Shown here: in pieces, positions 2,575 to 58,094 of the stretch | Position numbering within the stretch: the stretch's first letter is position 1 | Layout of the letters: every line of letters begins with the position of its first letter | NCBI GenBank assembly: GCA_965221925.1 | Contig: OZ244924.1 | Location: 1,929,352 to 1,993,351 of the forward strand | DNA from: Dehalococcoidia bacterium | Lineage (GTDB): Bacteria > Chloroflexota > Dehalococcoidia > Lucifugimonadales > UBA2985 | DNA: 64,000 bases | Reading direction: 5' to 3' | Notes under the pieces: generated by a model | Seen by the model: the letters and a program-made list of their open reading frames with translations, nothing else | The model's database searches: none | What the model was told of the DNA's origin: nothing | Position numbers and translations under genes: made by a program

Positions 2575-2860
2575 CCCCCCTACAAATAAAAAGCCCCGCC
2601 CCACAAGGGACGGGACATAAACTCCCGCGGTACCACCCTTTTTCCCCGATAACCGGGGCGCTCTGTTTTCAGGACACCGTCATGTCCCCGTACTGGTAAC
2701 GGCTACGACCCCGGCCCGGTCTACTGGCCCCGCTCGCGGAGCTTTCGGCGAGCAGCTCAGGAGTGATTTTCCGAAGCGCCCTTCGCGTCTGCTCGCACCA
2801 TTCCAGACTCGCTGGGCGAGGGTATGCTTCGTACTCGTCTCCGTCTTCGCTTTTACAAGC
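2575..2860 (-). promoter_or_regulatory. T-box riboswitch leader, Ile (AUC) specifier
   Basis: Minus strand has stem I with GGAGAC-GAGUA-CGAAGC pairing to GCUUCG-GAAAAUCA-CUCC. AUC (2765-2767) is followed by A next to the lower helix. The conserved T-box sequence AAAAAGGGUGGUACCGCGGGA lies at 2623-2643, followed by the terminator hairpin. Confidence 0.75.
2586..2616 (-). terminator. intrinsic terminator arm of the cimA T-box leader
   Basis: Minus-strand hairpin GUCCCGUCCC-UUGU-GGGGCGGGGC (two G-U pairs) followed by UUUUUAUUU, just upstream of the cimA ATG. Confidence 0.7.
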
Positions 2861-16192: not shown

Positions 16193-16241
16193 GTTTCCTT
16201 AATCTCTCACCACATATGGTACAGAGGCTCTAGAATGAGCC

Positions 16242-17151
16242 ATGAGCAGATTACCAGTACGGACCATCATCGAAACATGGAAGGTGTGCGATCAGAACGT
16301 CTCGGAAACGGCCCGGCGTTTGCACATAGACCGCCGGACCGTCAAACGCTGGGTGGATCGAGGGCGGCAGCCCTGGGGATACGTGCGTTGGCAGGGCGTG
16401 CGGCGCAAGTCTACCGCACCCAAACACCCCAAGCGTGCGCTGTGGGGGGAGGCTGCCGCCCAAGTGCGAAGGTGGAGGGAAGCGACCGGCTTCTGTCGGG
16501 AGAAGCTAGCGGTCTTGGCCCAGGCTCAAGGGCTGGAGGTCTCGGCATCGACCATTCATCGGTATTTGCAACGCGTGGGCTTGGTTCGCCCCAGTACGAA
16601 GCGACGGCGACCTCGCTTTCAGAACGGCCAAGTCATGCGGCCTCGTAACTGCCCGGGCTTAGGCTACCTTCAGATGGACGTGAAGTACGTCACTCCTGAG
16701 TTGTCCGGGTTGCCGTACACTTGCTACCTGTATGCGGCGATGGACATCTCCTCTCGCTACAAGGTTGGGCTAATCCTCCCCAAGCTGGCTGAGGGGGGAA
16801 CACTCTTGGCCCTGTACTATGGCCACACAGCAGTTCCCCTTCCCGTTGCACTACGTCCAGACGGACAATGGACTGGAGTTTCAGAGACGCTTTCGCGCCA
16901 AGTGCGCCGAACTCGGCCTTGAACACTTCTACATCCACAAGAGTTCTCCCAATGAGAACGCGGTAATCGAGCGGAGTTTCCGCACGGACGAAGAGGAATG
17001 CTTCTTCCGGTTAGAGGAAGCGCCCCAAGACCACCAGGAGATGAACACTCGGTATCAGCGCTTCCTTGACGACTACAACACTACCCGACCACACATGGGC
17101 ATCAATATGCTTACTCCAAAGGAGGCTATCACCCTGTACCAAAAGTCATGA
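16242..17151 (+). pseudogene. IS481-family (rve/DDE integrase) transposase, frameshifted
   Basis: Two ORFs, 16242-16922 (helix-turn-helix (HTH) region plus the start of the rve core) and 16819-17151 (YVQTDNGLEF...NENAVIERSF), in frames 0 and +1. The break lies within 16774-16825, which contains a G6 run at 16793-16798. Confidence 0.7.
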
Positions 17152-17225
17152 GAGATTACAGGGTCTTTTCATTATCTAAACCTTAGTATAGATTTTGTAA
17201 AAACAGCAAGGAGCGGACAAAGCCC

Positions 17226-17792
17226 ATGAAGTTGAGACAAGCGTTGGATAAAGTGCCGGACCCTAGAGGAAGACAGGGACGGCGGCATCCCATAGGGGCG
17301 ATACTAACGTTGGCGGTCTGTGCGATGATGTGTGGAGCGCGCAGCCTGTATGCAATCAGTCAGTGGGGGCGTGATCATAGTCCTGGCATGTCGAGGTCTC
17401 TGGGGTTCAACCGGGAACAGACTCCGAGTGTGGCTACGCTACACAGGGTGTTCAGCAGATTGGACAGACAAGCCTTTGAGCGGGTCTTGGGAGAGTGGAT
17501 GACTGGGAAGGGACTGAATGACGCCGAGGCGTTGGCGGTGGACGGCAAGAGTCTTCGAGGGATTCATGGAGAACAGATTCCCGGTGTCCATCTTGTATCG
17601 GCCTTCAGTCACCACACCGGAGTCGTGGTGGGGCAAGTGTCAGTGGAAGACGGCGGCGGCGAACTGGGCGCTCTCAGACGTTTGCTTGAAGAGGTGGAGG
17701 TGAATGGTCGAGTGATAACCGGGGATGCCCAGTTCACTCAGCGCCGCGACTGTGAGGAGATAGTGTCAAAGGGGGGGACTACTTTTTCGTAG
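17226..17792 (+). CDS. ISAs1-like transposase, N-terminal part (orfA)
   Basis: 188 aa. VPDPRGRQGRRHPIGAILTLAVCAMMCGARSLYAISQWG. Frame ends shortly after the G7 run at 17771-17777. Confidence 0.85.
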   Translation: MKLRQALDKVPDPRGRQGRRHPIGAILTLAVCAMMCGARSLYAISQWGRDHSPGMSRSLGFNREQTPSVATLHRVFSRLDRQAFERVLGEWMTGKGLNDAEALAVDGKSLRGIHGEQIPGVHLVSAFSHHTGVVVGQVSVEDGGGELGALRRLLEEVEVNGRVITGDAQFTQRRDCEEIVSKGGTTFS

Positions 17793-17839
17793 TCAAGGAC
17801 AACCAAAAGAGCCTGAGGGAGGACATTGAGACGATTTGG

Positions 17840-18313
17840 ATGGACGCTCATCCGCCATCGTACGAGCGCCTAACCAAACGAGCAGGCAGGGTGGAGACCA
17901 GAGCTATCTGGGCATCAGATGTTCTGGCAGGGTATACAGACTGGCCTCACATGGCCCAGGTGTGTCGCATCGAACGGACGGTTGTCAGCAAGTCTGTATC
18001 GAGTAGGGATGTGTCATATGCGGTGACCAGTCTCAGACCGGACGACGCCGACCCTCGCCGGCTGCTAAAGCTGTCGCAGGGACATTGGGGTATTGAGAAC
18101 AGACTGCATTGGGTGAGGGATGTGACCTTTGACGAGGACCGGTCTCAGGTGCGCACCGGAGCCGCCCCCCAGGTCCTTTCTGCCATACGAAACACAGCAA
18201 TTGGCATGTTGAGAATCGCCGGCGTCAGTAACATTGCTGCTGCTCTGAGACTAAACGCGGCGCAACCTCACATCCCACTCAGCCTAGTTGGGGCATCACC
18301 CATCACTCAATAA
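17840..18313 (+). CDS. ISAs1-like transposase, C-terminal part (orfB, -1 frame)
   Basis: First ATG is at 17840 but the frame is open from 17756. A -1 shift on the G7 run reads ...SKGG-DYFFVVKDNQKSLREDIETIWMDAH.... Contains HWGIENRLHWVRDVTFDEDRS. Confidence 0.85.
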   Translation: MDAHPPSYERLTKRAGRVETRAIWASDVLAGYTDWPHMAQVCRIERTVVSKSVSSRDVSYAVTSLRPDDADPRRLLKLSQGHWGIENRLHWVRDVTFDEDRSQVRTGAAPQVLSAIRNTAIGMLRIAGVSNIAAALRLNAAQPHIPLSLVGASPITQ

Positions 18314-18421
18314 TGAAAAGACCCTGTGAGAGATTAAGTGTTTCTTGAGATGGAGCGGGCGATGTGATACACTATCGTTAGGTTTATCCTAAGAGACTAG
18401 AGAAGAGTGAGGCAGACACCT

Positions 18422-24779: not shown

Positions 24780-24850
24780 TGCCCGGTAGTGTAGCGGTAG
24801 CACGTCAGCCTTTGGAGCTGAAGTCCCTGGTTCGAATCCAGGCCGGGCAG
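24780..24850 (+). tRNA. tRNA-Gln (anticodon UUG)
   Basis: Manual cloverleaf with acceptor TGCCCGG/CCGGGCA (U1-A72), D arm GTGT-AGCGGTA-GCAC, anticodon arm TCAGC-CTTTGGA-GCTGA and T arm CCTGG-TTCGAAT-CCAGG. CCA is not encoded. Confidence 0.9.
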
Positions 24851-27036: not shown

Positions 27037-28359
27037 GTGCCAACCGAGAATGCGCCGGCGTCTATGTACAGAAGCGCTGAGGGTTTGGGTGTCTGGGAGC
27101 ATAAAGGGAAGGTGGTGGCCGTTGGCATTGGGGTGTCTCCCACCGCGCGGCGCTGGGACGAGACCACCGATACCAGCGTGGGAGCCTGGAGCATCCTCGC
27201 GCTGCGGAGGGCAATGGAGGATGCCGGTGTCTCACCGGACCAGGTGGACGGGCTGGTGATGGCCCCGGATACGTCCACAGGGTCTCCCTGGCCGACAGGC
27301 AAGCCCATTCCGGAGGACTTCCTCAATACCTATCAGTCCACCGACAACCCATTGGACGGCGTAGCGAGGCTGAGCTCGGAGTGGATTCTCAAGAACACGC
27401 CGGAGTTGACCAACGTCAACTTCACCATGTACGGCTCCGGTTGTATGTCCAACGCCTTAGTGGTGGGCGCGCAGGCCGTGGGCGAGGGCCTCACCGACGT
27501 TTGCCTGGTACTGAAGGGCTGGCACAACTTTGGCGGCCGGTACTACGTGGGACAGGGCGCTGCCGCCGGAGACACCATCGGCGGGGCCGGCAAGTGGAGC
27601 GGCCTCTGGGGGACCGTGGCCTGCTACAACACGGCGATGATATTCGAGGCGTACTGCCGCAAGTACGGCAAGAGCCACGACATGATGGCGCCCTTTGTGG
27701 TGAACTCAAAGCGGAACGGCCTGCTGTATCCGGAGGGGTTCTGGGCGCAGCACAGGCCGGAGCCTCTGACCGTAGAGGACTATCTGTCCGCCCGGTGGAT
27801 AGCCAAGCCTGCCAACCTCTTTGACAACGACCTGCCCATCTGCGTTTCAGGCGCCATTCTCCTGACCACCGAGGAACGGGCCAGGGACATGAAGCAGAAG
27901 CCCGTCTACGTCCTCAACCATACACGGACGCTGCCGGCGACGCGGAGCGTGGTTCCCACGCTTGAGGAGTGGCAGGACGCAGGCGATAGCACAGGCCGGA
28001 AGCTGTACGAAGGCGCGGGGATAGGCCCAAGCGACCTGTCCTTTGAGAACATGTACGACGGCTTTACCCTGTTCCACCAGTTCCACCTGGAGGGGCTGCG
28101 GTTTGCGGGCGTGCAACGCGGGGAAGCTCTGGACTTCTACCAGACGGACATAAGCATAGAGGGGCCCAACCCGGTCTCGCCGAGCGGCGGGAACGCAGGG
28201 AGCGGTCGCACGCGCTTCTGGCTGCACATGGACAGCATACTACAGTTGCAGGGAAGGGCGGGCGAGCGGCAGATTAGCAAGCCGGCTGAGGCGGGCGTCT
28301 CCGGCGCTTTCTTCCCGGACTTCAACTACTCCGTGGTCTGGGGGGCCAGCCCGGACTAA
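27037..28359 (+). CDS. thiolase-like protein (SCP-x/lipid-transfer type)
   Basis: 440 aa with thiolase-fold N- and C-domain similarity (GSGCMSNAL..., C-terminal SPSGGNAGSGR). GTG start after GAAGGGGG. Confidence 0.55.
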   Translation: MPTENAPASMYRSAEGLGVWEHKGKVVAVGIGVSPTARRWDETTDTSVGAWSILALRRAMEDAGVSPDQVDGLVMAPDTSTGSPWPTGKPIPEDFLNTYQSTDNPLDGVARLSSEWILKNTPELTNVNFTMYGSGCMSNALVVGAQAVGEGLTDVCLVLKGWHNFGGRYYVGQGAAAGDTIGGAGKWSGLWGTVACYNTAMIFEAYCRKYGKSHDMMAPFVVNSKRNGLLYPEGFWAQHRPEPLTVEDYLSARWIAKPANLFDNDLPICVSGAILLTTEERARDMKQKPVYVLNHTRTLPATRSVVPTLEEWQDAGDSTGRKLYEGAGIGPSDLSFENMYDGFTLFHQFHLEGLRFAGVQRGEALDFYQTDISIEGPNPVSPSGGNAGSGRTRFWLHMDSILQLQGRAGERQISKPAEAGVSGAFFPDFNYSVVWGASPD

Positions 28360-28543: not shown

Positions 28544-28771
28544 CTAGCCGATGTAGCAGCCCCTACGCCCCCCGAATCTCCGCTCCACCCGTCCATCGGG
28601 GTATACGATGATGGGCACCGCATCGCCCAGCCCTCTGGCCTCGTCCAGCGCCCTCTGGCTCAGGTCGGCCCGGCGCTCCTCGTAGCTGACTCCCTCCGCG
28701 TCCCACTGCTCAATGAGCCTTGCGCACGCCGGGCAGCCCCTTATGGTATAGACAATGGGAAGTGAGGCCAT
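28544..28771 (-). CDS. glutaredoxin-like protein
   Basis: 75 aa. IVYTIRGCPACARL (CPxC in thioredoxin-fold context). Confidence 0.6.
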   Translation of the reverse strand: MASLPIVYTIRGCPACARLIEQWDAEGVSYEERRADLSQRALDEARGLGDAVPIIVYPDGRVERRFGGRRGCYIG

Positions 28772-28877
28772 ATTCTCTCAACTCCAATGGGCTATGTGGA
28801 TGATACATGCTCGCGTATCTCCTGCCAATAGGTGATCGAAGGGCATTCTCAGCGCGTGCTGGTAATGGCGCGCGATA

Positions 28878-29740
28878 CTGCTCGTATGGTTCGACAAGCT
28901 CACCACGAACGGACGTGGGGACACCACGAACGGACGTGGGGACACCACGAACGGACGTGGGGACACTACGAACGGACGTGGGGACACCACGAACGGACAT
29001 GGGGACACCACGAACGGACGTGGGGACACCACGAACGGACGTGGGGACACCACGAACGGACGTGGGGACACCACGAACGGGAGGGGAAACGCGGGTTTGC
29101 CCCCGTATCAAGTACAGGGCAGGCTCAGAGCCTGCCCTACCCCTCCGTTCGTCCTGAGCCTGTCGAAGGAGCACGAACGAAACGTGGCAGGCCCCTGCCT
29201 TCCCGCTCATATGGTTCGACAAGCTCACCACGAACGGGCGGGGGGACACTACGAACGGGCGGGGGGACACTACGAACGGGCGGGGGGATACCACGAACGG
29301 GCGGGGGGACACCACGAACGGACGTGGGGACACCACGAACGGACGTGGGGACACCACGAACGGACGTGGGGACACTACGAACGGGCGGGGGGACACCACG
29401 AACGGATGTGGGGACACCACGAACGGGCGGGGAACCGCGGGCTTGCCCCCGTATCAAGTACAGGGCAGGCTCTGAGCGGGCCCTACCCTTCCGTTCGTCC
29501 TGAGCCTGTCGAAGGAGCACGAACGAAACGTGGGCGGGCCCCTGCCTGCCCGCTCATATGGTTCGACAAGCTCACCACGAACTGACGTGGGGACACCACG
29601 AACTGACGTGGGGACACCACGAACGGACGTGGGGACACCACGAACGGGCGTGAGGACACCACGAACGGGCGTGAGGACACCACGAACGGGCGTGAGGACA
29701 CCACGAACGGACGTGAGGACACCACGAACGGGCGGGGGGC
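28878..29740 (+). repeat. tandem array R1: three blocks of 21-bp units (8+9+7) separated by about 125-bp linkers
   Basis: Each block starts with the core CCGCTCATATGGTTCGACAAGCTCACCACGAAC, followed by GGACGTGGGGACACCACGAAC-type units. Linkers contain GCCCCCGTATCAAGTACAGGGCAGGC and CGTCCTGAGCCTGTCGAAGGAGCACGAACG. Confidence 0.95.
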
Positions 29741-29926
29741 GGTACTCCAATCAACGCCGCCATTGCCAATACGTATCAGGAATAGCCGGCATAGGCGCAG
29801 GTTGAAGCATTCCGTCCAGGGCGCGATAATCTCCGAAGGCCGGAGGGAAACCGGCCCGCCGAGACCTCTCACAAACGACGCGAGGCGCCGGTGACCGGGC
29901 GAGTTCTTGCAGGAAGGAGCGATTAT

Positions 29927-34177: not shown

Positions 34178-34540
34178 TTCCCGTTCATAACCTGCCCCGT
34201 ACTTGATACGGGGGTAACCCGCGGTCCCCCGTCCGTTCGTGGTGTCCTCATGTCCGTTCGTGGTGTCCTCATGTCCGTTCGTGGTGTCCCCACGTCCGTT
34301 CGTGGTGTCCCCACGTCCGTTCGTGGTGTCCCCACGTCCGTTCGTGGTGTCCTCATGTCCGTTCGTGGTGTCCTCATGTCCGTTCGTGGTGTCCCCCGTC
34401 CGTTCGTGGTGTCCTCATGTCCGTTCGTGGTGTCCTCATGTCCGTTCGTGGTGTCCTCATGTCCGTTCGTGGTGTCCCCCCGCCCGTTCGTGGTGTCCCC
34501 CCGCCCGTTCGTGGTGAGCTTGTCGAACCAAATGAGCGGG
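34178..34540 (-). repeat. tandem array R2: 13 units of 21 bp (one of 20 bp), inverted relative to R1
   Basis: Plus strand reads linker fragment (rc of the R1 linker), then 13 x GTTCGTGGTGTCC(TCATGTCC/CCACGTCC), then GTTCGTGGTGAGCTTGTCGAACCAAATGAGCGGG (rc of the core). Confidence 0.95.
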
Positions 34541-43472: not shown

Positions 43473-43880
43473 GTGCGCGCAAGCGCTGTCATGCCACGCC
43501 AACACGCCTCACCATCGTCATGCCCGCTTTCGCGGGCATCCGGAGGGGGATGGGGGCGGATGGAGCCCGCTCGTGGTGAGCCTGTCCATACATATTACTC
43601 AATCGACACCCAAACCTGCGGTACTCGTGGGTTGTCGATTTTGATTCAACCAGGTAGCTCAAGGGGGTTTAGAAAAAGGTCTGCCACCTCAATCCTCTAT
43701 GAGGGATTCGAGCCTTCTTGGGTGGGGCCTAGGCGTACCGAATTGCGAACGTTTCAATACTCAATCTCAATATGAACACGGCCGTGGCTTCGCAGCTGTA
43801 GGTATGGATAGGGGGAAAGGCCATCCATTGCAACTCCACTAGAGCCCTATTTTCGCTGGCGGCCTACAAAAGGTCTGACG

Positions 43881-44207
43881 CTAATTTGGAGGGCCCGGCG
43901 GAGGCAATCGCCTGCGTATCTCGCGAATAATACTCGCTATGAATGCTCCAATGAGCGCCGTGCCCAGTACCACTACTGCGGGAAGCAGCCAAGGGTATCG
44001 CTCCGTGAATGGCTCCGGTTTTGTCGCAGGCTCGGTGGCCGGCGCTGTTGGCAGCGTAGTCGCGGCGAAGGCTGGACCGAGGGCATGATTGCCCGCGTTT
44101 GCTATCGGCTCTGCGGCTACAAACAGCGCGGGAAGCATTATCAGTGTCCCGCCTAATACAGCGACCACAATGCGCGAGAATAGCGCCACGCTTCTATACC
44201 TTTTCAC
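43881..44207 (-). CDS. hypothetical small membrane protein
   Basis: 108 aa with N- and C-terminal hydrophobic helices and a Pro/Thr/Ala linker. Its start overlaps the DUF2339 stop by 14 nt. Confidence 0.4.
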   Translation of the reverse strand: MKRYRSVALFSRIVVAVLGGTLIMLPALFVAAEPIANAGNHALGPAFAATTLPTAPATEPATKPEPFTERYPWLLPAVVVLGTALIGAFIASIIREIRRRLPPPGPPN

Positions 44208-46671
44208 GAAAGAGGAACCCCCTCAGGGCCTGGCTGTAGCGCTGGTATGCCAGCCCTGTGCCCAGAAGCAGAACTCCAAGGGTCACAAAAGCGGCGACCC
44301 GGTATCCCTGCTCCAGCAGGAAAACATCGAACCCAAAGAGCTTGATCACAGGAAGCACCAGTAGAGCCATCCCTGCTAGCCTGACTCTGCTGGACCGTTG
44401 AAAGATACCCACGCCAATTGCGGCAATGCCGTAAACTGCCCATAGCACTGTCAACGTGAGGTGCTTGGCGCTGACCTGGGCCATGCCAGACGTTATCTCC
44501 AGACTGTCAAAATAGCGTATCCCTTCAAGGCTCATCCCCCAAAGAGCGGCTACATTGATGGCAATCAGCAGTATCCGGAATGCGGTAATTTCCAGTCCGG
44601 GCAAGAGCGCTCTTTCCCTGCGGGACCAGTAGTAGATTGCTACCATAGGCGTCAACACTAACACAAAGGTCAGGAAGTGCGAGTTGAGGACAGAGACAGA
44701 CGTGAGGTGGTCCAGGCGAACTACAAACGTGTCGAACGCCAGGAGCTTTAGCATTGCTGCTCCCGCCAGGCCAATGCCGCCCCAACGCGCCAAAGGCAAG
44801 CGCCACTTCAGCCCAACGGCCAGGAGAAGAGATGCGTATATCGACCAAATGACAGACAGCGTTAGGAGTGTTCCGTTAGTTGCGCTCTGCTGGTCCCCGA
44901 ATTCATCGAAGCGGCTATCGAAGTAGGCCATCGCTTCAAGGCTGAGCAACCCCAGAGTCAGCCCGCCGGCAATAGCGGCCAGCATCGGGGGCATGGACTC
45001 CTCCCATTCCTCGCCAAGGTCGCGATTGCGCCAGTACAGGTATCCCGCTGCGTAGAATGCAACGATTACAACCACAAATATGAGGAATCGCTCGTTCATA
45101 ACCGGCATGAAGCCATTCAGGTCGACGGTGGCGCCGAACAGCAGCAGGCGCCCCGCTGCCAGCGCCAAGGCTCCAAGACCGAATATCCGCATCGACTTTT
45201 TGTAGAGGAGGAAGCCTGCCCAGACCATCACTGCGCCCTGTACCGCCCAGGCTGTGGTCAGCCACACGCCACTGAGCTGTAGCGGCACAGCGACCGTCAG
45301 GAAAACAAGCGCCATTGGCAGGGCGATCAGGGCTATCTCCGTCGGCGCGCCAGATCTCTTCAGGGCTGCGTATGCAATTAGCCCGTAGAGCAGGGACAAC
45401 GACAGCGAAATCAACCCGAACCAGACCTGGTAATCCTCCCATAGTATGGCTACCGTGAGGGCGAAGAACGCTGTACCGTTTATCGCCACTAGACTCATGT
45501 CAGGCGGCCCCGGAACCCGTCTCCACAGGATGTGAAACAACGTGGTTGCTCCGACGAAGATTAGAAACATTGCGGTGAGACCCGCCTGCATCAGGGTCGG
45601 CTCGTAGCCCGGAAACTGATCCACGCCGGCGGCAAAGAGGCCATAGGAGCCTATCCATCCCATCAGAATGAACAAGCGCCAGTTCCTGAAGGTTGCGACC
45701 CAGAGAATCCCAAGGTCTACAATCAGGATGTACGGGAGTACCAGCCTGATGTCCGGGAGCTCCGGGCTAAGCAGAACCGGGGCAATAAACGCGCCGATGA
45801 TGCCAAGAATCCCAATGACGACCGAATCGTAACGGATAGCCAGTAGTCCCGCCAACCCTACCACTACTGCGAGAAACACAAGCGCCGCGTCTGGCCGGAT
45901 GAGCTGATACAGGGCAAAGGCAGAGTAAAGGGACAGATAAAGAATGGCGGCCCCGCCTGCCGTTACGGCCTGGGCCCAGAAAGGAACGCGTCGCTGAGCG
46001 TACTCACCAACGCCCAGCAGCGCCAATCCCACGGCGATGCCAAGGACTATACGGCCCGTGTCTCCTATCCAGTTGTTGTCGAATGACAGCTTCAGGAAAA
46101 ATCCGAGGCCCAACACCAGGGCTACTGATCCGATAATTGCAAACCAGTTCCTCCCCAGGATGTGCTCCCAGTCAATGGAAGACCCGAAGCTAATGGCCCC
46201 AGTGGAATTCGGCACGCCCGCCGCAGCGCCGGAGGACAGGCCGCCCAGCGCTTCTCCGGCGTTCGCAGCCCTGCTCATGGACGCTGAGCTTGGACTCGGC
46301 GGTCCATGGGGCCGCCGGTAGGCCGGCCCTTCGGAAACGGGCGACCGGTCCCGCGGGATGTCTGCCGGTTGAGCTTCCGGCTGGGAAGCCGGAGGTTGAG
46401 GCCGCGTTGGCGCTTGAACGTCCTGACCTTGCGGCTGAGGCTGGGTTGGTATAGCGCGGCCGCCCTCAAGCAGGGACATGCGGACCTGAAGCCGGTCAAG
46501 TTCTCTCGAGACTCCATTAAGGCGCCCTCGCACCGACTCAAGCTCTCTCGCAAGGGACTGCCTCTCTCTATCCGCGGCGTCTGTTATCCGCAGATTGGCG
46601 CCGCATTCTGTGCAGAAGAAGTGGTTAGATGGGTTTGCTCTGTTGCAGCGTGGGCAGGTAACTTCGCTCAT
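44194..46671 (-). CDS. DUF2339 polytopic membrane protein with N-terminal zinc ribbon
   Basis: 825 aa. N-terminal CPRCN...CTECG, a coiled-coil/low-complexity segment, then roughly 20 hydrophobic helices typical of DUF2339. Confidence 0.65.
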   Translation of the reverse strand: MSEVTCPRCNRANPSNHFFCTECGANLRITDAADRERQSLARELESVRGRLNGVSRELDRLQVRMSLLEGGRAIPTQPQPQGQDVQAPTRPQPPASQPEAQPADIPRDRSPVSEGPAYRRPHGPPSPSSASMSRAANAGEALGGLSSGAAAGVPNSTGAISFGSSIDWEHILGRNWFAIIGSVALVLGLGFFLKLSFDNNWIGDTGRIVLGIAVGLALLGVGEYAQRRVPFWAQAVTAGGAAILYLSLYSAFALYQLIRPDAALVFLAVVVGLAGLLAIRYDSVVIGILGIIGAFIAPVLLSPELPDIRLVLPYILIVDLGILWVATFRNWRLFILMGWIGSYGLFAAGVDQFPGYEPTLMQAGLTAMFLIFVGATTLFHILWRRVPGPPDMSLVAINGTAFFALTVAILWEDYQVWFGLISLSLSLLYGLIAYAALKRSGAPTEIALIALPMALVFLTVAVPLQLSGVWLTTAWAVQGAVMVWAGFLLYKKSMRIFGLGALALAAGRLLLFGATVDLNGFMPVMNERFLIFVVVIVAFYAAGYLYWRNRDLGEEWEESMPPMLAAIAGGLTLGLLSLEAMAYFDSRFDEFGDQQSATNGTLLTLSVIWSIYASLLLAVGLKWRLPLARWGGIGLAGAAMLKLLAFDTFVVRLDHLTSVSVLNSHFLTFVLVLTPMVAIYYWSRRERALLPGLEITAFRILLIAINVAALWGMSLEGIRYFDSLEITSGMAQVSAKHLTLTVLWAVYGIAAIGVGIFQRSSRVRLAGMALLVLPVIKLFGFDVFLLEQGYRVAAFVTLGVLLLGTGLAYQRYSQALRGFLFREKV

Positions 46672-46859
46672 CGGCTGAAACCTCCTTGTTTAGGAGCCTC
46701 GAACTGGACCACCGTTTGCAATATGCCACCCGGCAAGCGGCGCAGAAAGGTTCGTTGATACCGCATACCATGGTATATGTGTACCCAAAACCGGGGTACA
46801 AATGTACCTTGACGCTACTATGGAGCAATGTAGAATTCGAAACAAGTCTCAGTAAAAGC

Positions 46860-48092
46860 GTGAGGCCTGATTTGTCGAATGCATCAGTCGATACAGCGGC
46901 GGCCTCCGGTCGGACATTGAGTCCGGCTGACCCGGATGACCTGCGATACAGCCTGCGGATATCGGTCTGGGTACGCTGGTTCGTGGTGATTGCGTGGCTG
47001 GCGCAATTCAACTATAGAGGCGACTTCACCGACCCAACCTTCATCCCTAACACGTTGCTGGCTGGCGCGTTGCTTGTTTTGAACGGCTATGTTCACCACC
47101 GCATCCGGTCAGCCCGGAGAGTGACGTGGCGCTGGGCGCTGGCCCTCAGCGCGATGGACGCGATTACAATCACGTCGGGTCTAGCAATATCAGGTGGCTT
47201 TCAGAACTCCTTTTTTGTCCTGTACTACCCGGCGCTGGCGAACTTTGCTGTGGTGTTTACATCTTTCAGGCTCAGCTTTGCCTGGACCACCATCATCGCC
47301 GTTGTATACACGGCGCTTAGCCTGTCTCTGTACTCGGGACTCGACTTTGAGGCCAAAGAAGAGAAGGTCTTGTTTTCGAGGATCGTGACCATGTTCGCGG
47401 TTGTCGCTGTGGTCAACCTCATCTCCAGACTGGAGCGCATTAGGCGGAGAGAGGCCGTGGAGCGAGAAAGGGAGCTCCAACGGGAACGAATTGAGCTCTC
47501 ACAGACAATCCACGACACTATTGCCCAGTCCGCTTACTTGATTGGTCTGGGAATCGAGACTGCTGTAGAGCTTGCTGAAGATTCGAACCTGGAACTGGTC
47601 GCCAAGCTTAAGGCAACACACTCCTTGTCGAAATCGACCATGTGGGAGCTGAGACATCCCATCGACGCCGGCCCGATATTCGAAGGCAGGGAGCTTGGCC
47701 GCGTATTGCGGTCACATGCATCCACATTCACCACCATCACATCGATTCCCACGGAGGTTGTCCAGACGGGAGCGGAGCCGCAGCTCTCAATGGTCACCCG
47801 GAGGCTGCTCTTTTCCGTGGCGCACAATGCGATGACCAATGCGTTTCGGCATTCGAATGCTTCCAGGGTAACTATGGCGCTACACTTTGGAGGCGAGACA
47901 CTCCGTATGACCATAGCCGACGACGGGATAGGACTCCCGGACGACTACGAAGACCGCGGCCACGGATTCAGGAACATGAGAATCGACGTGGAGCGAATGG
48001 GCGGAGCGCTTGAAGCCACTCTCGGAGAGTCCGGGCTTGGCACAGCCGTAACCTGCACTATTCCATATAGAGCGCCTGAAGGAGGCCGATAA
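46860..48092 (+). CDS. sensor histidine kinase (HisKA_3, NarX/DesK type)
   Basis: Membrane N-terminal half, H-box LSQTIHDTIAQSAY and an HATPase_c region (HNAMTNAFRHS ... DDGIGLP ... GHGFRNM). Start uncertain: GTG 46860 follows TTGACG-16-TAGAAT at 46809-46836, but the ORF is open from 46686. Confidence 0.8.
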   Translation: MRPDLSNASVDTAAASGRTLSPADPDDLRYSLRISVWVRWFVVIAWLAQFNYRGDFTDPTFIPNTLLAGALLVLNGYVHHRIRSARRVTWRWALALSAMDAITITSGLAISGGFQNSFFVLYYPALANFAVVFTSFRLSFAWTTIIAVVYTALSLSLYSGLDFEAKEEKVLFSRIVTMFAVVAVVNLISRLERIRRREAVERERELQRERIELSQTIHDTIAQSAYLIGLGIETAVELAEDSNLELVAKLKATHSLSKSTMWELRHPIDAGPIFEGRELGRVLRSHASTFTTITSIPTEVVQTGAEPQLSMVTRRLLFSVAHNAMTNAFRHSNASRVTMALHFGGETLRMTIADDGIGLPDDYEDRGHGFRNMRIDVERMGGALEATLGESGLGTAVTCTIPYRAPEGGR

Positions 48093-48618
48093 CTTGACAC
48101 CATCCAAACAATCCAGGGTAATGCTCGTAGACGATCATGAGATAATGCGGGACGGACTTCGAGAAGTCCTCGAGCGCTCCGGCAACTTCGAAGTGGTGGG
48201 CCAAGCCGGCGATGGCGTTGCAGCCGTCAACATCGCTCTGAAGTTAAAACCGGACGTAATTGTCATGGATGTGATGATGCCCTTGAAGAATGGTATCGAC
48301 GCGTGTAGAGAGATAACGGAAATGCTCCCGGACACGAAGACGCTGATTCTGACGGCTTCCGCGGAGGAGGATGCCGTGATGGAAGCGGTGGCCGCGGGCG
48401 CAACCGGCTTCCTTCAGAAATACTCCGGCAAGGAGAAACTCCTCGCTACGGTCCGGGAGGTTGCTGACGGCGAGTACCGAATACCGAGCAACGTCTTGCG
48501 AAGCGTGTTCGCGGGAATCCGGGGAACGGCTGAACAGAAGACGACCGACGGTCCCAAGTCGCTCACACAACGGGACAGGGTCTTTCGATTATGGCAAGAA
48601 GAGTGATAGAGTTGGCGT

Positions 48619-49062
48619 ATGAATACGGAGGGACTGGGAAAGAGCCTACTTGGAGTACTGGAGGGGGTGCCTGATCCCCGGTCCAGGCATGGTCGTCGCC
48701 ATGCGCTGAGTGCAATCTTGGCGTTATCGGTGTGTGCAATAGCAAGTGGCGCCCGTAGTCTATATGCCATAGCCCAATGGGGAAGGATGCAAGACCCGGC
48801 TACACTGAAGGAGTTGGGGTTCACCAGAGAGCGGACCCCTGCGATATCCACGTTGCATAAGGTGTTCAGCAGTATAGACGTGGATGTGTTCGAGAGTGTG
48901 CTTGGGGAATGGGTTGAATCTCAGTTGGGAACAAGAGAGGAGGCAATAGCAATAGATGGCAAGGCGCTTAGGGGGATACACGGGGAGGAGGCGCCTGGAG
49001 TCCGTCTTGTGGCTGCCTATAGCCATCGCATGGGCTTGGTGGTGAGTCAAAAAGGGGGGTGA
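48619..49062 (+). CDS. ISAs1-family transposase orfA (copy B)
   Basis: 147 aa, 2 aa different from copy A. Ends at the same A5G6-TGA (49049-49062). Confidence 0.85.
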   Translation: MNTEGLGKSLLGVLEGVPDPRSRHGRRHALSAILALSVCAIASGARSLYAIAQWGRMQDPATLKELGFTRERTPAISTLHKVFSSIDVDVFESVLGEWVESQLGTREEAIAIDGKALRGIHGEEAPGVRLVAAYSHRMGLVVSQKGG

Positions 49063-49742
49063 CGGCTGAGAAGCATCAGTCGGAGTTGGCTATGGCAAGC
49101 TCGCTGTTGGAGAGAATGATCGTAACAGACAGGGTAGTGACCGGGGATGCGCTGTACTGCCAGAGACAGCTGTGTGAACAGGTGGTTGGTGGAGGTGGCG
49201 ACTATCTGTTGATAGTCAAGAGCAACCAGAAGAGGCTGTACGAGGACATAGAGTTGTGCTTCGACCGGCCTGTGGTTGGTGAGACGTATGGATATGCCGA
49301 GACCGAGGACAGTCATGGAGAGCGTCGAGAGTATCGCAGGTTGTGGGCTACAGACACACTGAAGACCTATCTGGAGTGGCCCGGACACGGGCAGGTGATG
49401 AAGGTTGAGAGTTGGCGCAGCATCAAAGGCAAGACCACTCGGCAGGTGCGATACGCTATCACCAGCCTTGGGACTCACACACCGGCTGATAGACTGCTCC
49501 AACTGGTACGCGGCCATTGGCGCATTGAGAATGGCCTGCACTATGTGAGGGACGTGACCATGGGGGAGGATGGCTCCCAAGTTCGCACCGGCTCAGCGCC
49601 ACAGATGATGGCAGCCCTGAGAAACGTGGCGCTGAATATCCTCCGACTGAGCGGAGCTACCAACATCGCAGCAGCCATAAGGAACGTCGCTTGGCAGCCC
49701 AACGGCGCTCTCAGATTGCTAGGCCTACTACCATCACAATAA
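49059..49742 (+). CDS. ISAs1-family transposase orfB (copy B, -1 frame)
   Basis: 227 aa, 1 aa different from copy A. Confidence 0.85.
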   Translation: MTAEKHQSELAMASSLLERMIVTDRVVTGDALYCQRQLCEQVVGGGGDYLLIVKSNQKRLYEDIELCFDRPVVGETYGYAETEDSHGERREYRRLWATDTLKTYLEWPGHGQVMKVESWRSIKGKTTRQVRYAITSLGTHTPADRLLQLVRGHWRIENGLHYVRDVTMGEDGSQVRTGSAPQMMAALRNVALNILRLSGATNIAAAIRNVAWQPNGALRLLGLLPSQ

Positions 49743-50053
49743 TCGAAAGACCCTGACAACGGGACAGGGAGATCTTGACACTCTTCGCCCAAGGCCTTTC
49801 CTACGCGGAGATAGCAGAGGCGAGGAATAACCAGCCGTTGACTATTAGAAACGCGATATACAGCATTCAGGACAAGCTCGGTATTGATACCAAGCAGGAG
49901 CTTGTGGTGTGGGCGGTCCGTAACGGCCTCTTGGATGACTTCCAGATCGGAAGATGACCTCTGCCGTACGCGAATTTAGTCTTGGATTGCGGCTCAGTCG
50001 GTGCAGTAGCCCGCGTCGCTTAGCGATCGGCAGTGGTATCGAACGCTCGGTTG

Positions 50054-50148
50054 CCGCTCATGCTGAACTTGTCGAACCACATGAGCGGGACGCTGGGGAA
50101 GCCCACCCCCCTTTTGCTCACGCCCTTCGACTCGCTCAGGATGAGCGG
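50054..50148 (-). repeat. solitary copy of the array modules (partial core plus M2 hairpin)
   Basis: CCGCTCATG...CTTGTCGAACCACATGAGCGGG, then ...GCTCACGCCCTTCGACTCGCTCAGGATGAGCGG, matching the core-plus-tail unit of array R3. Followed by two GGAACCCAA.CACCCCTGGGTTCC hairpins. Confidence 0.75.
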
Positions 50149-50422
50149 AACCCAACCACCCCTGGGTTCCTTATAGAGGCCCTGAGGCCAAGCGTCACCA
50201 CGATAGCGGAACCCAAACACCCCTGGGTTCCTCCCTTCGCAGGAGTGCCGGCGCGGCCTGTGGCGCTCCTGACTGGCGTATGTTAGGATATATCTGAGGT
50301 CAAGCGCATAAGGGGCGTGAATCGGCGCAACTCAGGCGCCACTTCCGCCGACTCCGTAGCTGGGCAATAGGCGTATCCCAAGCGTGACGGATGACTACAT
50401 AGGCTCAAACCACCTCCGGCGA

Positions 50423-50497
50423 GCGGGTGTAGCTCAGTGGTAGAGCTCTTGCTTCCCAAGCAAGTTGTCGTGGGTTCGATCCCCATCACCCGCTCCA
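50423..50497 (+). tRNA. tRNA-Gly (anticodon CCC)
   Basis: Manual cloverleaf with acceptor GCGGGTG/CACCCGC, D arm GCTC-AGTGGTA-GAGC, anticodon arm CTTGC-TTCCCAA-GCAAG and T arm GTGGG-TTCGATC-CCCAT. CCA is encoded. Confidence 0.92.
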
Positions 50498-53176: not shown

Positions 53177-53412
53177 TCCTGCTTTCGGAGACCATTGCGC
53201 AACCGCCCAACGCGCCATTTGATGTCATTCCGAGCGCAGCGAGGAATCTAAGACGTTGCGCCGTAGTCATGAGAAGATTCCTGCCACAAGGGTCCTCGTG
53301 GGGGATGAGAGCCTTTAGATTCCTCACTCCGCTGTGCTCCGTTCGGAATGACAGTTGGAGCGTCTTTTCACAGGATGGCGCCCAGAGTTATGCAAAGGTC
53401 TCCTTTCGCAGG
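53177..53412. repeat. 236-bp MITE-like hairpin element, copy 2
   Basis: Near-identical to 30962-31197. Flanked by two small hairpins, ATGCCCGC-GAAC-GCGGGCA (53128-53146) and TGCCCGC-GAAC-GCGGGCA (53451-53469). Confidence 0.85.
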
Positions 53413-53493
53413 GGTGGTTACGGCGTCGGCAGTTACCACCGTGTAGCACCTGCCCGCGAACGCGGGCATCCAGAGGAGGATGGGGGGTAAATT

Positions 53494-54261
53494 ACCATTC
53501 GTGGTGAGCCAAGCTCCCTTGTCCGTTCATGGTGAGCCAAGCTCCCTTGTCCGTTCATGGTGAGCCAAGCTCCCCTGCCCGTTCGTGGTAAACCGAGCTC
53601 CCCTGCCCGTTCGTGGTAAACCGAGCTCCCCTGCCCGTTCGTGGTGAGCTTGTCGAACCACATGAGCGGGACACTGGAGAAGCCGACCCAGTTCCGCTCA
53701 CGCCCTTCGACTTCGCTCAGGATGAGCGGAATGTCCCTGCCCATTAGTGGTAAACTTGTCGAACCACATGAGCGGGACACTGGAGAAGCCGACCCAGTTC
53801 CGCTCACGCCCTTCGACTTCGCTCAGGATGAGCGGAATGTCCTTGTCCGTTCATGGTGAGCCGATCTCCCCTGCCCGTTCGTGGTGAGCTTGTCGAACCA
53901 CATGAGCGGGACACTGGAGAAGCCGACCCAGTTCCGCTCACGCCCTTCGACTTCGCTCAGGATGAGCGGAATGTCCTTATCCGTTCATGGTGAGCCGAGC
54001 TCCCCTGCCCGTTCGTGGTGAGCCGAGCTCCCCTGCCCGTTCGTGGTGAGCCGAGCTCCCCTGCCCGTTCGTGGTGAGCTTGTCGAACCACAAGAGCGGG
54101 ACACTGGAGAAGCCGACCCAGTTCCGCTCACGCCCTTCGACTTCGCTCAGGATGAGCGGAATGTCCTTGTCCGTTCGTGGTGAGCCGATCTCCCCTGCCC
54201 GTTCGTGGTGAGCCGAGCTCCCCTGCCCGTTCGTGGTGAGCTTGTCGAACCACATGAGCGG
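53494..54261 (-). repeat. tandem array R3: 28-bp units interleaved with five core modules and four 66-bp M2 tails
   Basis: Plus strand reads blocks of CCGTTC(G/A)TGGTGAGCC(G/A)AGCTCCCCTGC (period 28), then GTTCGTGGTGAGCTTGTCGAACCACATGAGCGGG, then ACACTGGAGAAGCCGACCCAGTTCCGCTCACGCCCTTCGACTTCGCTCAGGATGAGCGGAATGTCC, repeated. Confidence 0.95.
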
Positions 54262-57964: not shown

Positions 57965-58094
57965 TACTCCGCCTCTTTTTCCGGCGCGCAAAGGCTGGGA
58001 AGAGAGGAAAAGCAGTCCCCATACGGGTCAGCCGGGCGACGATCTCAGGGAAGCGGAGCCTGTAGTCAGCAGGATCCAACCGCTATGAACGCGC

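What the first reader, a model, noticed from the sequence alone, without database searches (positions are those of the whole stretch)
28878..29740. Array R1: hierarchical tandem repeat with 24 units of 21 bp in three blocks, each opened by the same 34-nt core
The structure is [core CCGCTCATATGGTTCGACAAGCTCACCACGAAC][8 units][125-bp linker][core][9 units][125-bp linker][core][7 units]. The majority unit GGACGTGGGGACACCACGAAC contains alternating 5-nt inverted repeats, CCACG-AACGGA-CGTGG-GGACA. The array can therefore fold as a string of small hairpins in two registers. On DNA it presents CCACG/CGTGG dyads every 21 bp, which is two helical turns and so the same face. Unit variants (GGGCGGGGGG..., GGGCGTGAGG..., TGACGTGGGG...) cluster in runs, indicating local expansion and homogenisation. 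The array fills a divergent intergenic region between the glutaredoxin-like gene and the ydeI-like gene. The null explanation is expansion of a REP/MITE-type selfish repeat. The strict period and block architecture are still unusual and unexplained.
Basis: seen in the sequence. Interest (0 to 1): 0.6.

Follow-up and report, generated by a model that had tools for sequence, protein, structure and literature searches.

The report
Recently amplified selfish hairpin-repeat array
The 21-bp array is real, but it is a recent, lineage-specific pile-up of one piece of a small DNA hairpin that litters this Dehalococcoidia genome; the same hairpin occurs almost letter for letter in many bacterial phyla, where it brackets a tiny nuclease gene, so the array itself is ordinary junk-like DNA while the family behind it looks undescribed.

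Summary
The array is confirmed: three blocks of 8, 9 and 7 units of 21 bp, each opened by a 33-nt core and joined by 124/125-bp linkers.

It is not a special phased structure.
- The core is the loop and 3' arm of a hairpin (module A) present about 320 times in this 2.46-Mb genome. The linkers hold a second hairpin (module B) with the same loop, GAGCYTGTCGAA.
- The 21-bp unit is the 3' arm of A plus a G-rich spacer, reiterated. Sister arrays repeat the same arm with periods of 17 to 32 bp.
- The CCACG/CGTGG dyad survives in only 11 of 24 units.
- The whole 954-bp block is missing from the two closest relatives. At the sister array 5 kb away, the nearest relative has the same hairpin with no 21-bp units.
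- Orientation relative to neighbouring genes is random.

The family is the surprise. The 22-mer is identical across many phyla, matches nothing in Rfam, and no RAYT transposase is present. In 80 genomes of diverse phyla the loop motif is 50-100 times enriched within 300 bp of a ~90-aa UPF0213 GIY-YIG nuclease gene, as an inverted pair. Whether that nuclease drives spread is an inference, and one loop-rich relative lacks a close copy.

The parts
28834..28877 (+). Left end of the lineage-specific block. It is unique apart from a motif GGTAATGGCGCGCGATAC that resembles a motif in the family's 175/190-bp arrays.
   Evidence: Homology with G008 and G007 stops after 28833. BLAST finds no second full copy in the genome. 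A similar motif, GGTTATGGCGCGCGACAC, is in the consensus of the array at C1:647973.
28878..28910 (+).
28911..29078 (+). Block 1: 8 units of 21 bp. Each unit is the 3' arm of hairpin A (CACCACGAACGG) plus a 9-nt G-rich spacer.
29079..29202 (+). Linker 1 (124 nt). It contains a degenerate H hairpin (stem 29116-29138) and hairpin B (29145-29179, loop GAGCCTGTCGAA at 29156).
29203..29235 (+). Hairpin A, copy 2. Together with the preceding B it forms the family's inverted B-A doublet, 59 bp from loop to loop.
   Evidence: Loop pairs with the same 58-59 bp spacing are seen in G013.
29236..29424 (+). Block 2: 9 units of 21 bp (runs of the GGGCGGGGGG type and the GGACGTGGGG type).
29425..29549 (+). 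Linker 2 (125 nt, 92% identical to linker 1). It contains H and hairpin B (29491-29525).
29550..29582 (+). Hairpin A, copy 3.
29583..29729 (+). Block 3: 7 units of 21 bp (TGACGTGGGG, GGGCGTGAGG and related types).
29730..29787 (+). Right-end tail (GGTACTCCAATCAACGCCGCCATTGCCAATACGTATCAGGAATAGCC), related to a dispersed terminal module (GTACTCCAACCAACGTTGGCATTACCAAC).
   Evidence: Copies of this module follow hairpin A at many loci; 29 copies were counted. Homology with G008 resumes at about 29788.
28800..28828 (-). Promoter-like site for the glutaredoxin gene (TTGGCA-17-TATCAT), just outside the left junction.
   Evidence: This is a consensus match only.
29802..29830 (+). Promoter-like site for the ydeI-like gene (TTGAAG-17-GATAAT), just outside the right junction.
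   Evidence: This is a consensus match only.
34231..34540 (-). Sister array R2: hairpin A plus 13 units of the same 21-bp type, in inverted orientation. In the nearest relative the same site has hairpin A with a single arm and no units.

Best explanation
R1 is non-coding, selfish-type repeat DNA: a lineage-specific composite of a dispersed hairpin-repeat family that has been amplified in tandem at two levels.

Shown:
- The 'core' is the loop and 3' arm of hairpin A (CCCGYTC-ATATG-GTTCGACARGCTCACCAC-GARCGGG).
- The 'linkers' carry hairpin B (CCGTTCGTCC-TGAGCCTGTCGAA-GG...), which has the same loop on the opposite strand. Each linker-to-core junction is therefore the family's standard inverted B-A doublet.
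- The 21-bp unit is a reiteration of A's 3' arm plus the G-rich bases that follow it.
- Such reiteration happens in place at a pre-existing single hairpin.
- The whole 954-bp block is missing from the closest relatives, where 38 bp of unrelated sequence stands in the gap between two back-to-back promoter-like sites.

Inferred:
- The units grow and shrink by slipped-strand or unequal-exchange events at the hairpin. The 325/347-bp super-repeat arose the same way.
- The array has no phased binding function.
- At the family level, the hairpins are probably the recognition sites (terminal inverted repeats) of a ~90-aa UPF0213 GIY-YIG nuclease. Its gene is bracketed by them in many phyla, and its cutting at extruded hairpins may start both the copying to new sites and the local amplification. 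That would be analogous to REP/REPIN sequences and their RAYT enzyme, but with a different enzyme.
For: - Anatomy.
- Copy number: about 318 copies of the 22-mer (up to 3 mismatches) and 503 loop 12-mers against 5 for the reversed control in this genome.
- Location: 237 islands, 90% of their bases outside crude gene calls in a genome that is 86% coding.
- Sister arrays: at least 60 family tandem arrays, about 24 of them 3'-arm arrays with periods of 17-32 bp.
- R1 block absent from G008 (97-98% identical flanks) and from G007.
- R2 locus: G008 has the same A+H element with one arm and no units, while the window has 13.
- Family indels go both ways in the 64-kb comparison.
- Loop counts within the genus range from 77 to 648.
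- Independent single hairpins sit upstream of grx in G003 and G005.
- No orientation bias relative to genes: 29 vs 32 and 62 vs 68.
- Stem covariation: C-G 79, T-A 22, odds ratio 9.3, p = 3e-4. Stem extensions pair more often than shuffled controls (0.505 vs 0.40).
- Nuclease link, own genome: the gene is embedded in A+unit and B modules and its stop codon lies inside a B hairpin.
- Nuclease link, other genomes: in 80 loci from many phyla the loop density is 2.4-2.8 per kb within 300 bp of the gene against 0.01-0.06 per kb beyond 1 kb, in a stereotyped inverted arrangement with up to 27-bp inverted repeats.
- Co-occurrence across 150 Dehalococcoidia: median 35 vs 5 loops, p = 2e-5.
Against: - Unit counts are not independently verified, because short-read unitigs cannot span the array.
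- Gain in this lineage is not formally separated from loss in the ancestor of G007 and G008. The two linkers differ by 8%, so the super-repeat is not brand new.
- No target-site duplication was seen. Both de novo events look like replacements of local sequence, which does not fit classical transposition.
- The nuclease link is correlative. Only 2 of 119 loci picked by the 22-mer hold the gene.
- Seventeen sampled genomes with 30 or more loops lack a close homolog.
- In this genus G001 (648 loops), G002, G003 and G007 have only a ~35%-identical paralog.
- A minimal GIY-YIG domain has no known strand-transfer activity.
Confidence: 0.78

Rival explanations
1. The hairpins spread and the arrays amplify purely through host replication slippage and recombination. 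The UPF0213 nuclease gene is only a favoured landing site or passenger, not the driver.
For: G001 has the most loops (648) but no close nuclease homolog. Seventeen loop-rich genomes lack one. In-place reiteration at R2 needs no dedicated enzyme. No target-site duplications were seen.
Against: The gene is flanked by an inverted hairpin pair at fixed distances (about -30 to -45 and +15 to +35) in Bacteroidota, Campylobacterota, Proteobacteria, Babeliales and Chloroflexota, a 50-100-fold local enrichment. It is hard to see this as a chance landing site. The cross-phylum identity of the 12-22-nt loop implies a conserved recognising factor.
Confidence: 0.3
2. R1 is a transcribed, structured RNA element, such as a REP-like mRNA stabiliser, a terminator or insulator between the divergent genes, or a small-RNA array.
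For: Three majority units fold well as a single strand (z = -6.2). Mismatches in hairpin A are one-sided: 93 C.A against 2 T.G, which read as G.T wobbles on the loop-GAGCYTGTCGAA strand. That fits a fold of one particular single strand. REP sequences in E. coli do act on mRNA stability (general knowledge).
Against: No Rfam match even at E = 10. Genome-wide orientation is random relative to flanking genes. R1 lies upstream of both divergent promoter-like sites rather than inside a transcript. There are no T-tracts after the hairpins; the one terminator-like site found is no more than the shuffles give. The block is absent from close relatives with the same genes. The wobble asymmetry could come from descent from a few master copies.
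Confidence: 0.1
3. R1 is a phased array of protein-binding dyads (CCACG/CGTGG every two helical turns) that shapes the DNA or regulates the divergent promoters.
For: The period is exactly 21 bp across 24 units, and the array sits between two promoter-like sites.
Against: The dyad is intact in only 11 of 24 units. Sister arrays of the same arm have periods of 17-32 bp. The array is absent from relatives that keep both genes and both promoter-like sites. An exact period is expected from any recent tandem duplication.
Confidence: 0.04
4. R1 encodes a heptad-repeat protein; ORFs of 98-236 aa run through it in several frames.
For: 21 bp is 7 codons, and open frames exist on both strands.
Against: The unit has no stop codon in any of its three plus-strand frames, and open frames run through the array on both strands, so openness carries no information. 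Pfam gives only sub-threshold low-complexity hits. Sister arrays have periods not divisible by three (17, 19, 20, 22, 28, 32). The block is absent from close relatives.
Confidence: 0.02
5. The array, or its copy number, is an assembly artefact.
For: Short-read unitigs break at both edges, and many repeat-derived joints are seen.
Against: Unique internal junction stretches (for example 28946-28996, 29389-29474, 29448-29575, 29639-29689) and both flanks occur at 100% identity in runs from two studies. The contig is 2.38 Mb long, and dozens of comparable arrays are assembled elsewhere.
Confidence: 0.04

Closest known systems
REP sequences, BIMEs and REPINs with their RAYT (TnpA-REP) enzyme (Enterobacteria, Pseudomonas; PMC2817692, PMC3116915)
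   Same: Short imperfect palindromes in hundreds of extragenic copies, arranged as inverted doublets and mosaic clusters. A single-copy nuclease-type gene is bracketed by inverted copies of the repeat (REPtron-like). Copy number changes quickly between relatives.
   Different: There is no Y1 HUH transposase in the genome; the bracketed gene is a ~90-aa UPF0213 GIY-YIG nuclease. The conserved part is the loop, and it is identical across phyla, whereas REP families are lineage-specific. There is no GTAG tag. Amplification into short-period tandem arrays of one arm is extreme.
Bacterial minisatellites / VNTRs such as mycobacterial MIRUs
   Same: Intergenic tandem units of tens of bp whose number differs between close relatives (R2: 0 vs 13 units).
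   Different: Here the units are fragments of a dispersed hairpin element and are nested in a higher-order repeat.
MITEs (for example Correia/NEMIS and Nezha elements)
   Same: Small, non-autonomous, intergenic, with inverted-repeat structure and high copy number.
   Different: No target-site duplication was found, and no DDE transposase parent is known. Both de novo events seen here replace local sequence.
GIY-YIG homing endonucleases (I-TevI type) and Slx1-type structure-specific nucleases (PMC1564403)
   Same: The same catalytic fold. Homing enzymes spread by cutting DNA and letting repair copy the element, and Slx1 cuts branched or hairpin DNA. Both offer a plausible chemistry for hairpin-directed copying.
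   Different: The UPF0213 proteins have no DNA-binding extension, no intron or intein context, and no demonstrated substrate.

Membership tests
REP/REPIN-RAYT system | Short imperfect palindromes in high copy number, mostly extragenic | tested here: met
   About 318 copies of hairpin A and 237 islands, with 90% of their bases outside crude gene calls.
REP/REPIN-RAYT system | An associated RAYT gene (Y1 HUH transposase, Pfam PF01797) flanked by REPs | tested here: not met
   No PF01797 match anywhere in the genome; the control genomes responded.
REP/REPIN-RAYT system | A conserved unpaired GTAG or CGTC tag at one end of the palindrome (PMC3733652) | tested here: inconclusive
   No GTAG borders hairpin A or B in the aligned copies. 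CGTC does occur inside B's 5' arm (CCGTTCGTCC), but not as an unpaired tag. This was not tested statistically.
REP/REPIN-RAYT system | The repeat sequence is specific to a species or genus | tested here: not met
   The exact 22-mer is found in more than 119 loci from Chloroflexota, Proteobacteria, Nitrospirota, Acidobacteriota, Campylobacterota, Fibrobacterota and others.
BIME (mosaic REP cluster) | Alternating-orientation palindromes at regular spacing with defined linker motifs | tested here: met
   Inverted B-A doublets with 58-59 bp between loops, in R1 and in G013, and mosaic combinations with the H and C modules.
MITE | Terminal inverted repeats plus a target-site duplication, derived from a known IS | tested here: not met
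   No direct duplication at the R1 junctions or at the G008-only insertion; both replace local sequence. No parent IS was identified.
Minisatellite / VNTR | Tandem units whose copy number varies between close relatives | tested here: met
   R2: 13 units here, none in G008 or G007 at the same site. R3 and R4 also differ in length.
CRISPR array | Identical repeats separated by unique spacers of similar length | tested here: not met
   The units abut head to tail with no spacers. The genome's true CRISPR array is elsewhere and has a different repeat.
UPF0213 / standalone GIY-YIG nuclease (the associated gene, C1:1829768-1830055) | GIY-YIG catalytic domain, about 90-100 aa, no extra domains | tested here: met
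   PF01541 at 62 bits against a cut-off of 22.6. Matches PDB 1ZG2 and 1YWL, both named 'UPF0213 protein'.
Any Rfam RNA family | A covariance-model match | tested here: not met
   No hit at gathering scores; only chance-level hits at E up to 10.

The most novel reading that the evidence does not exclude
The hairpins with the loop GAGCYTGTCGAA, together with the ~90-aa UPF0213 GIY-YIG gene they bracket, form a previously undescribed pan-bacterial mobile or semi-domesticated system. It would be a counterpart of REPIN/RAYT built on a GIY-YIG nuclease that recognises a folded single strand or cruciform. Arrays such as R1 would be the scars or by-products of repeated cutting and repair at the hairpin's 3' arm. 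That would give the orphan UPF0213/YhbQ family a substrate and add a new enzyme class to prokaryotic repeat mobilisation.
Probability: 0.35. Interest if true: 0.85.

Novelty: new variant of a known kind. Interest (0 to 1): 0.55.

Why it matters
The array itself matters little. It is a strain-variable expansion of repeat DNA between two promoters, useful mainly as a typing marker and as a warning for assembly and gene calling, because it produces spurious ORFs of up to 236 aa.

The family matters more. A 12-22-nt motif kept identical across bacterial phyla, absent from Rfam and from the searchable literature, makes up at least 1.6% of this genome. It is tightly and stereotypically linked to a tiny nuclease of unknown function (UPF0213, the YhbQ family). 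That points to a conserved protein-hairpin recognition that nobody has characterised, and it is directly testable with oligonucleotides and a 90-aa protein. The repeats also sit at inversion breakpoints, so they shape genome structure in these uncultured Dehalococcoidia.

Tried and rejected
- Rfam at gathering scores and at E up to 10: nothing relevant.
- RAYT / Y1 transposase search: none.
- Literature searches for the nucleotide strings, for the spurious peptide strings (SLSNHE, FDKLRANG, LSLSKG), and for GIY-YIG together with REP, MITE or TIR: no description found. Subscription journals are not covered.
- Orientation relative to flanking genes: no bias. This rejects the sister note that the core always points at the downstream gene.
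- Replication-strand bias: weak (102 vs 70 islands, p = 0.018) on a weak GC skew. I did not rely on it.
- Strand inference from wobble pairs across phyla: ambiguous once the position fixed by the search pattern is set aside. The within-genome asymmetry of 93 vs 2 is suggestive but confounded by shared descent.
- Read evidence: only short-read unitigs were available. They support the junction stretches but cannot span the array, and the many 'joints' come from other copies of the family.
- Empty-site search for the nuclease gene in G007 and G008: the locus is rearranged by inversions, so no clean boundary could be read.
- Donor search for R1: no near-identical copy elsewhere; the best is 85-87% over 101 bp.
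- Plasmids and phages as vehicles: only two large Comamonas replicons carry the hairpin, and no phage does.

Full report
**1. The observation**

The region reads exactly as described. A 33-nt core at 28878-28910 (CTGCTCGTATGGTTCGACAAGCTCACCACGAAC, two mismatches to the later copies) is followed by:
- 8 units of 21 bp (28911-29078)
- a 124-nt linker (29079-29202)
- the core (29203-29235)
- 9 units (29236-29424)
- a 125-nt linker (29425-29549)
- the core (29550-29582)
- 7 units (29583-29729)

TRF reports the three blocks with 91-97% matches. The 10-mer CACCACGAAC, allowing one mismatch, occurs 63 times in the window against 3.8 expected. The exact majority unit accounts for 9 of the 24 units. 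Variants cluster in runs. Both halves of the CCACG/CGTGG dyad are present in only 11 of 24 units. The flanking genes are a glutaredoxin and a YdeI/OmdA-family gene, transcribed divergently.

Short-read unitigs from runs of two different studies contain both flanks and several unique internal junction stretches without a mismatch. None spans the array, so the unit numbers rest on the assembly alone.

**2. R1 is not unique**

TRF and pattern searches show the same core elsewhere in the window:
- at 34231-34540 (13 units of the same 21-bp type, opposite strand)
- at 53498-54241 (28-bp units)
- at the end of a 46-bp array at 62694-63706

In the whole 2.46-Mb genome (61.6% GC, five contigs) the 22-mer GTTCGACAAGCTCACCACGAAC occurs 272 times with up to two mismatches and 318 times with up to three.

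Reading those copies shows what the core is: the loop and 3' arm of an imperfect hairpin, CCCGYTC-ATATG-GTTCGACARGCTCACCAC-GARCGGG (module A). The linkers of R1 contain a second dispersed hairpin, CCGTTCGTCC-TGAGCCTGTCGAA-GG... (module B), whose loop is the reverse complement of A's loop. They also contain a degenerate copy of a third dispersed hairpin (CCCCGTATCAAGTACGGGG...). R1 ends in a fourth dispersed module (GTACTCCAA...CCAATA...).

Each linker-to-core junction in R1 places the B and A loops 59 bp apart in inverted orientation. This is the commonest arrangement of the family in other genomes (58-59 bp). The 'hierarchical block architecture' is therefore a tandem triplication of the family's ordinary B-A doublet together with its unit array.

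**3. What the 21-bp unit is**

Each unit is the last 12 nt of hairpin A (CACCACGAACGG) plus 9 nt derived from the G-rich bases that normally follow the hairpin.

The genome holds at least 60 tandem arrays built from family modules. About 24 of them reiterate this same 3' arm, with periods of 17, 19, 20, 21, 22, 27, 28 and 32 bp. Others reiterate the B loop (18-19 bp), whole hairpins (46-62 bp) or composites (99-190 bp). The 21-bp period, and so the 'two helical turns, same face' idea, is not a property of the family. An exact period is what any recent tandem duplication gives.

Periods not divisible by three also rule out a conserved coding function. The ORFs through R1 are open only because the unit happens to lack stop codons, and Pfam finds nothing above threshold in them.

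**4. Natural experiments with close relatives**

Eight genomes of the same genus carry the orthologous neighbourhood. In the two closest, G008 (a Dehalococcoidia MAG, 97-98% identical in the flanks) and G007, the grx-ydeI spacer is about 239 bp instead of 1155 bp. Homology stops after window 28833 and resumes at about 29788. The 954-bp block is replaced by 38 bp of unrelated sequence.

The junctions lie just outside two promoter-like sites: the -35 box for grx at 28828 and the -35 box for ydeI at 29802. The block therefore occupies the only dispensable gap between two back-to-back core promoters.

At the sister locus R2 the comparison is sharper. G008 has the same A and H modules at the same place with a single 3' arm and no 21-bp unit, G007 has an even shorter version, and the window has 13 units inserted at exactly that point. 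So the units arise in place, from a single hairpin, within a few percent of sequence divergence.

Across the whole 64-kb window there are 12 large indels against G008, and five or six involve the family, in both directions. They include a 307-bp B-A composite present only in G008, where it replaces 117 bp of window sequence.

Loop-motif counts also point to fast turnover:
- 503 in this genome (5 for the reversed control)
- 153 in G008 and 128 in G007
- 77-648 in the rest of the genus
- 0 in three sister genera

Two outgroup genomes have independent single A hairpins upstream of grx, at other positions and in other orientations.

Two points count against a simple 'very recent insertion' story. 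R1's two linkers are only 92% identical, and no near-identical donor exists elsewhere in the genome. Neither de novo event shows a target-site duplication.

**5. Is there a host function?**

Islands of the family cover at least 1.6% of the chromosome. Ninety percent of their bases lie outside crude gene calls in a genome that is 86% coding.

Orientation is random relative to neighbouring genes: 29 co-oriented against 32 opposed in tandem contexts, and 62 against 68 for 'points at the downstream gene'. This argues against a leader, terminator or other strand-specific mRNA role. It also contradicts a sister note from this scan, based on four arrays. There is only a weak leading-strand bias (102 vs 70 islands).

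Nothing matches Rfam.

The hairpin is real as a structure. Watson-Crick partners covary at the variable stem position (C-G 79, T-A 22; odds ratio 9.3, p = 3e-4). Stem extensions in copies from other phyla pair more often than shuffled controls (0.505 against 0.40, highest shuffle 0.449).

Mismatches are one-sided: 93 C.A against 2 T.G. On the strand that carries the GAGCYTGTCGAA loop, those 93 become G.T wobbles. This hints that this particular single strand is the one that folds. Shared descent of subfamilies could produce the same pattern.

**6. The family beyond this genome**

The exact 22-mer occurs in more than 119 loci (the scan hit its limit) in Dehalococcoidia, Methylococcales, Burkholderiales, Moraxella, Nitrospirales, Acidobacteriota, Desulfobulbaceae, Fibrobacteres, Sulfuricurvum, Legionella and others. 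It is usually accompanied by module B and by locus-specific complementary stem extensions.

REP families are normally lineage-specific, so identity across phyla is unusual. The genome has no Y1/RAYT transposase.

- In this genome, the best-scoring standalone GIY-YIG gene (UPF0213 family; Pfam 62 bits; PDB relatives 1ZG2 and 1YWL) lies inside the same architecture as R1. Two A-plus-28-bp-unit arrays and a B hairpin 33 nt before the start codon lie upstream. Its last codons and TGA stop lie inside another B hairpin. Five [B][A plus 19/28-bp units] repeats follow.
- In 80 loci from many phyla, chosen only by homology to this protein, the loop 12-mer occurs at 2.4 and 2.8 per kb in the 300 bp before and after the gene. 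Beyond 1 kb the density is 0.01-0.06 per kb. The forward loop typically sits at -30 to -45 and the reverse loop at +15 to +35.
- The inverted repeats reach 27 bp (CCGTTCGCCCTGAGCCTGTCGAAGGGC ... GCCCTTCGACAGGCTCAGGGCGAACGG). AT-rich Bacteroidota and Babeliales keep the same loop.
- Among 150 sampled Dehalococcoidia, the 13 genomes with a close homolog have a median of 35 loops against 5 in the rest (p = 2e-5).
- In Chryseobacterium and Epilithonimonas the gene with its hairpins sits in at least two unrelated neighbourhoods. In Sulfuricurvum its position is conserved.

**7. Limits of the nuclease link**

Most hairpin copies are nowhere near the gene: only 2 of 119 loci picked by the 22-mer hold it. 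Seventeen loop-rich genomes in the sample lack a close homolog. Within this genus G001, the richest genome (648 loops), as well as G002, G003 and G007, have only a paralog about 35% identical, and in this genome that paralog is not flanked by repeats.

The nuclease is therefore not needed for copies to persist, and perhaps not for arrays to grow. A bare GIY-YIG domain has no known strand-transfer chemistry.

The standard survey of the superfamily treats these proteins as minimal 'Slx1-like' bacterial members and does not mention repeats (PMC1564403). I found no paper that describes the association. Plasmids and phages almost never carry the hairpin.

**8. Verdict**

R1 is a real but ordinary product of an extraordinary repeat family. 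It is a lineage-specific, non-coding composite in which the 3' arm of a dispersed hairpin has been reiterated 24 times and the whole B-A-units cassette has been triplicated, in the one dispensable gap between two divergent promoters.

The most likely mechanism for the reiteration is slippage or unequal exchange at a hairpin that stalls or is cut. This is an inference, supported by the in-place expansion at R2.

The most likely explanation for the family is a REPIN/RAYT-like relationship with the UPF0213 GIY-YIG nuclease. This rests on a strong positional association across phyla and on statistical co-occurrence, and there are clear exceptions to it. The phased-dyad, structured-RNA, coding and artefact readings are each disfavoured by specific tests.

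Noticed in passing
window 2603-2856 (-), 24780-24850 (+), 50423-50494 (+): A T-box leader (110 bits) and two tRNA genes are the only Rfam matches at gathering scores in the window.
   Followed up: no
genome C1:1062712-1069020 (outside the window): A long CRISPR array with the repeat GGTCTATCCCCGCGTGTGCGGGGGAACC and a period of about 61 bp. It is unrelated to the hairpin family.
   Followed up: no
window 27037-28359 and paralogs genome-wide: The 440-aa thiolase-C-like gene next to R1 has 11-13 paralogs per genome in this genus (45-87% identity), an unusually large family for a 2-2.5-Mb genome.
   Followed up: no
window 43588-50230 and 16198-18339: A 6.6-kb and a 2.1-kb segment are present here but absent from the syntenic region of the nearest relative G008. 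They contain no hairpin-family motifs, so they are probably unrelated insertions or deletions.
   Followed up: no
window ~57965-58081 vs G008 (L227-L230 joined, 53283-53591): G008 has a 307-bp composite (GC-palindrome module, B-A doublet, arm units, H) where the window has 117 bp of unrelated sequence. This is a family gain in the other lineage, again as a replacement without a target duplication.
   Followed up: partly
genome C1:1828900-1833000 vs G007 (L241) and G008 (L242): The neighbourhood of the GIY-YIG gene is rearranged between close relatives. Inversion breakpoints (for example near C1:1831550 and 1830685) coincide with copies of the hairpin family, which suggests the repeats mediate inversions.
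   Followed up: partly
genome-wide, e.g. C1:10132-10600, 87324-87645, 910868-911196: Another dispersed module, ...CCTCCCCTCTGGATGCCCGCGTGCGCGGGCATGACGACG... (a GC palindrome, GCCCGCGTGCGCGGGC), often travels with hairpin A. It may be a separate repeat family or a further module of the mosaic.
   Followed up: no
genome C1:420762-422637, 501600-518707, 584423-587073, 2114155-2115030: Long tandem repeats with periods of 288-348 bp (multiples of 3), probably repetitive domains of very large surface proteins.
   Followed up: no
plasmid records NZ_CP054841.1 and NZ_CP106882.1 (Comamonas, ~640 kb): These are the only plasmid-collection records with hairpin A (3 and 8 places). They are large, non-mobilizable replicons, probably chromids rather than vehicles of transfer.
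   Followed up: no
window 28710-29420 (-), 28832-29503 (+) and others: The arrays create spurious ORFs of up to 236 aa (for example VSPRPFV and HHERTWG heptads). Translations of the hairpins, such as MVRQAHHER, FDKLTTNG and LSLSKE, are likely to pollute protein databases as 'hypothetical proteins'.
   Followed up: partly
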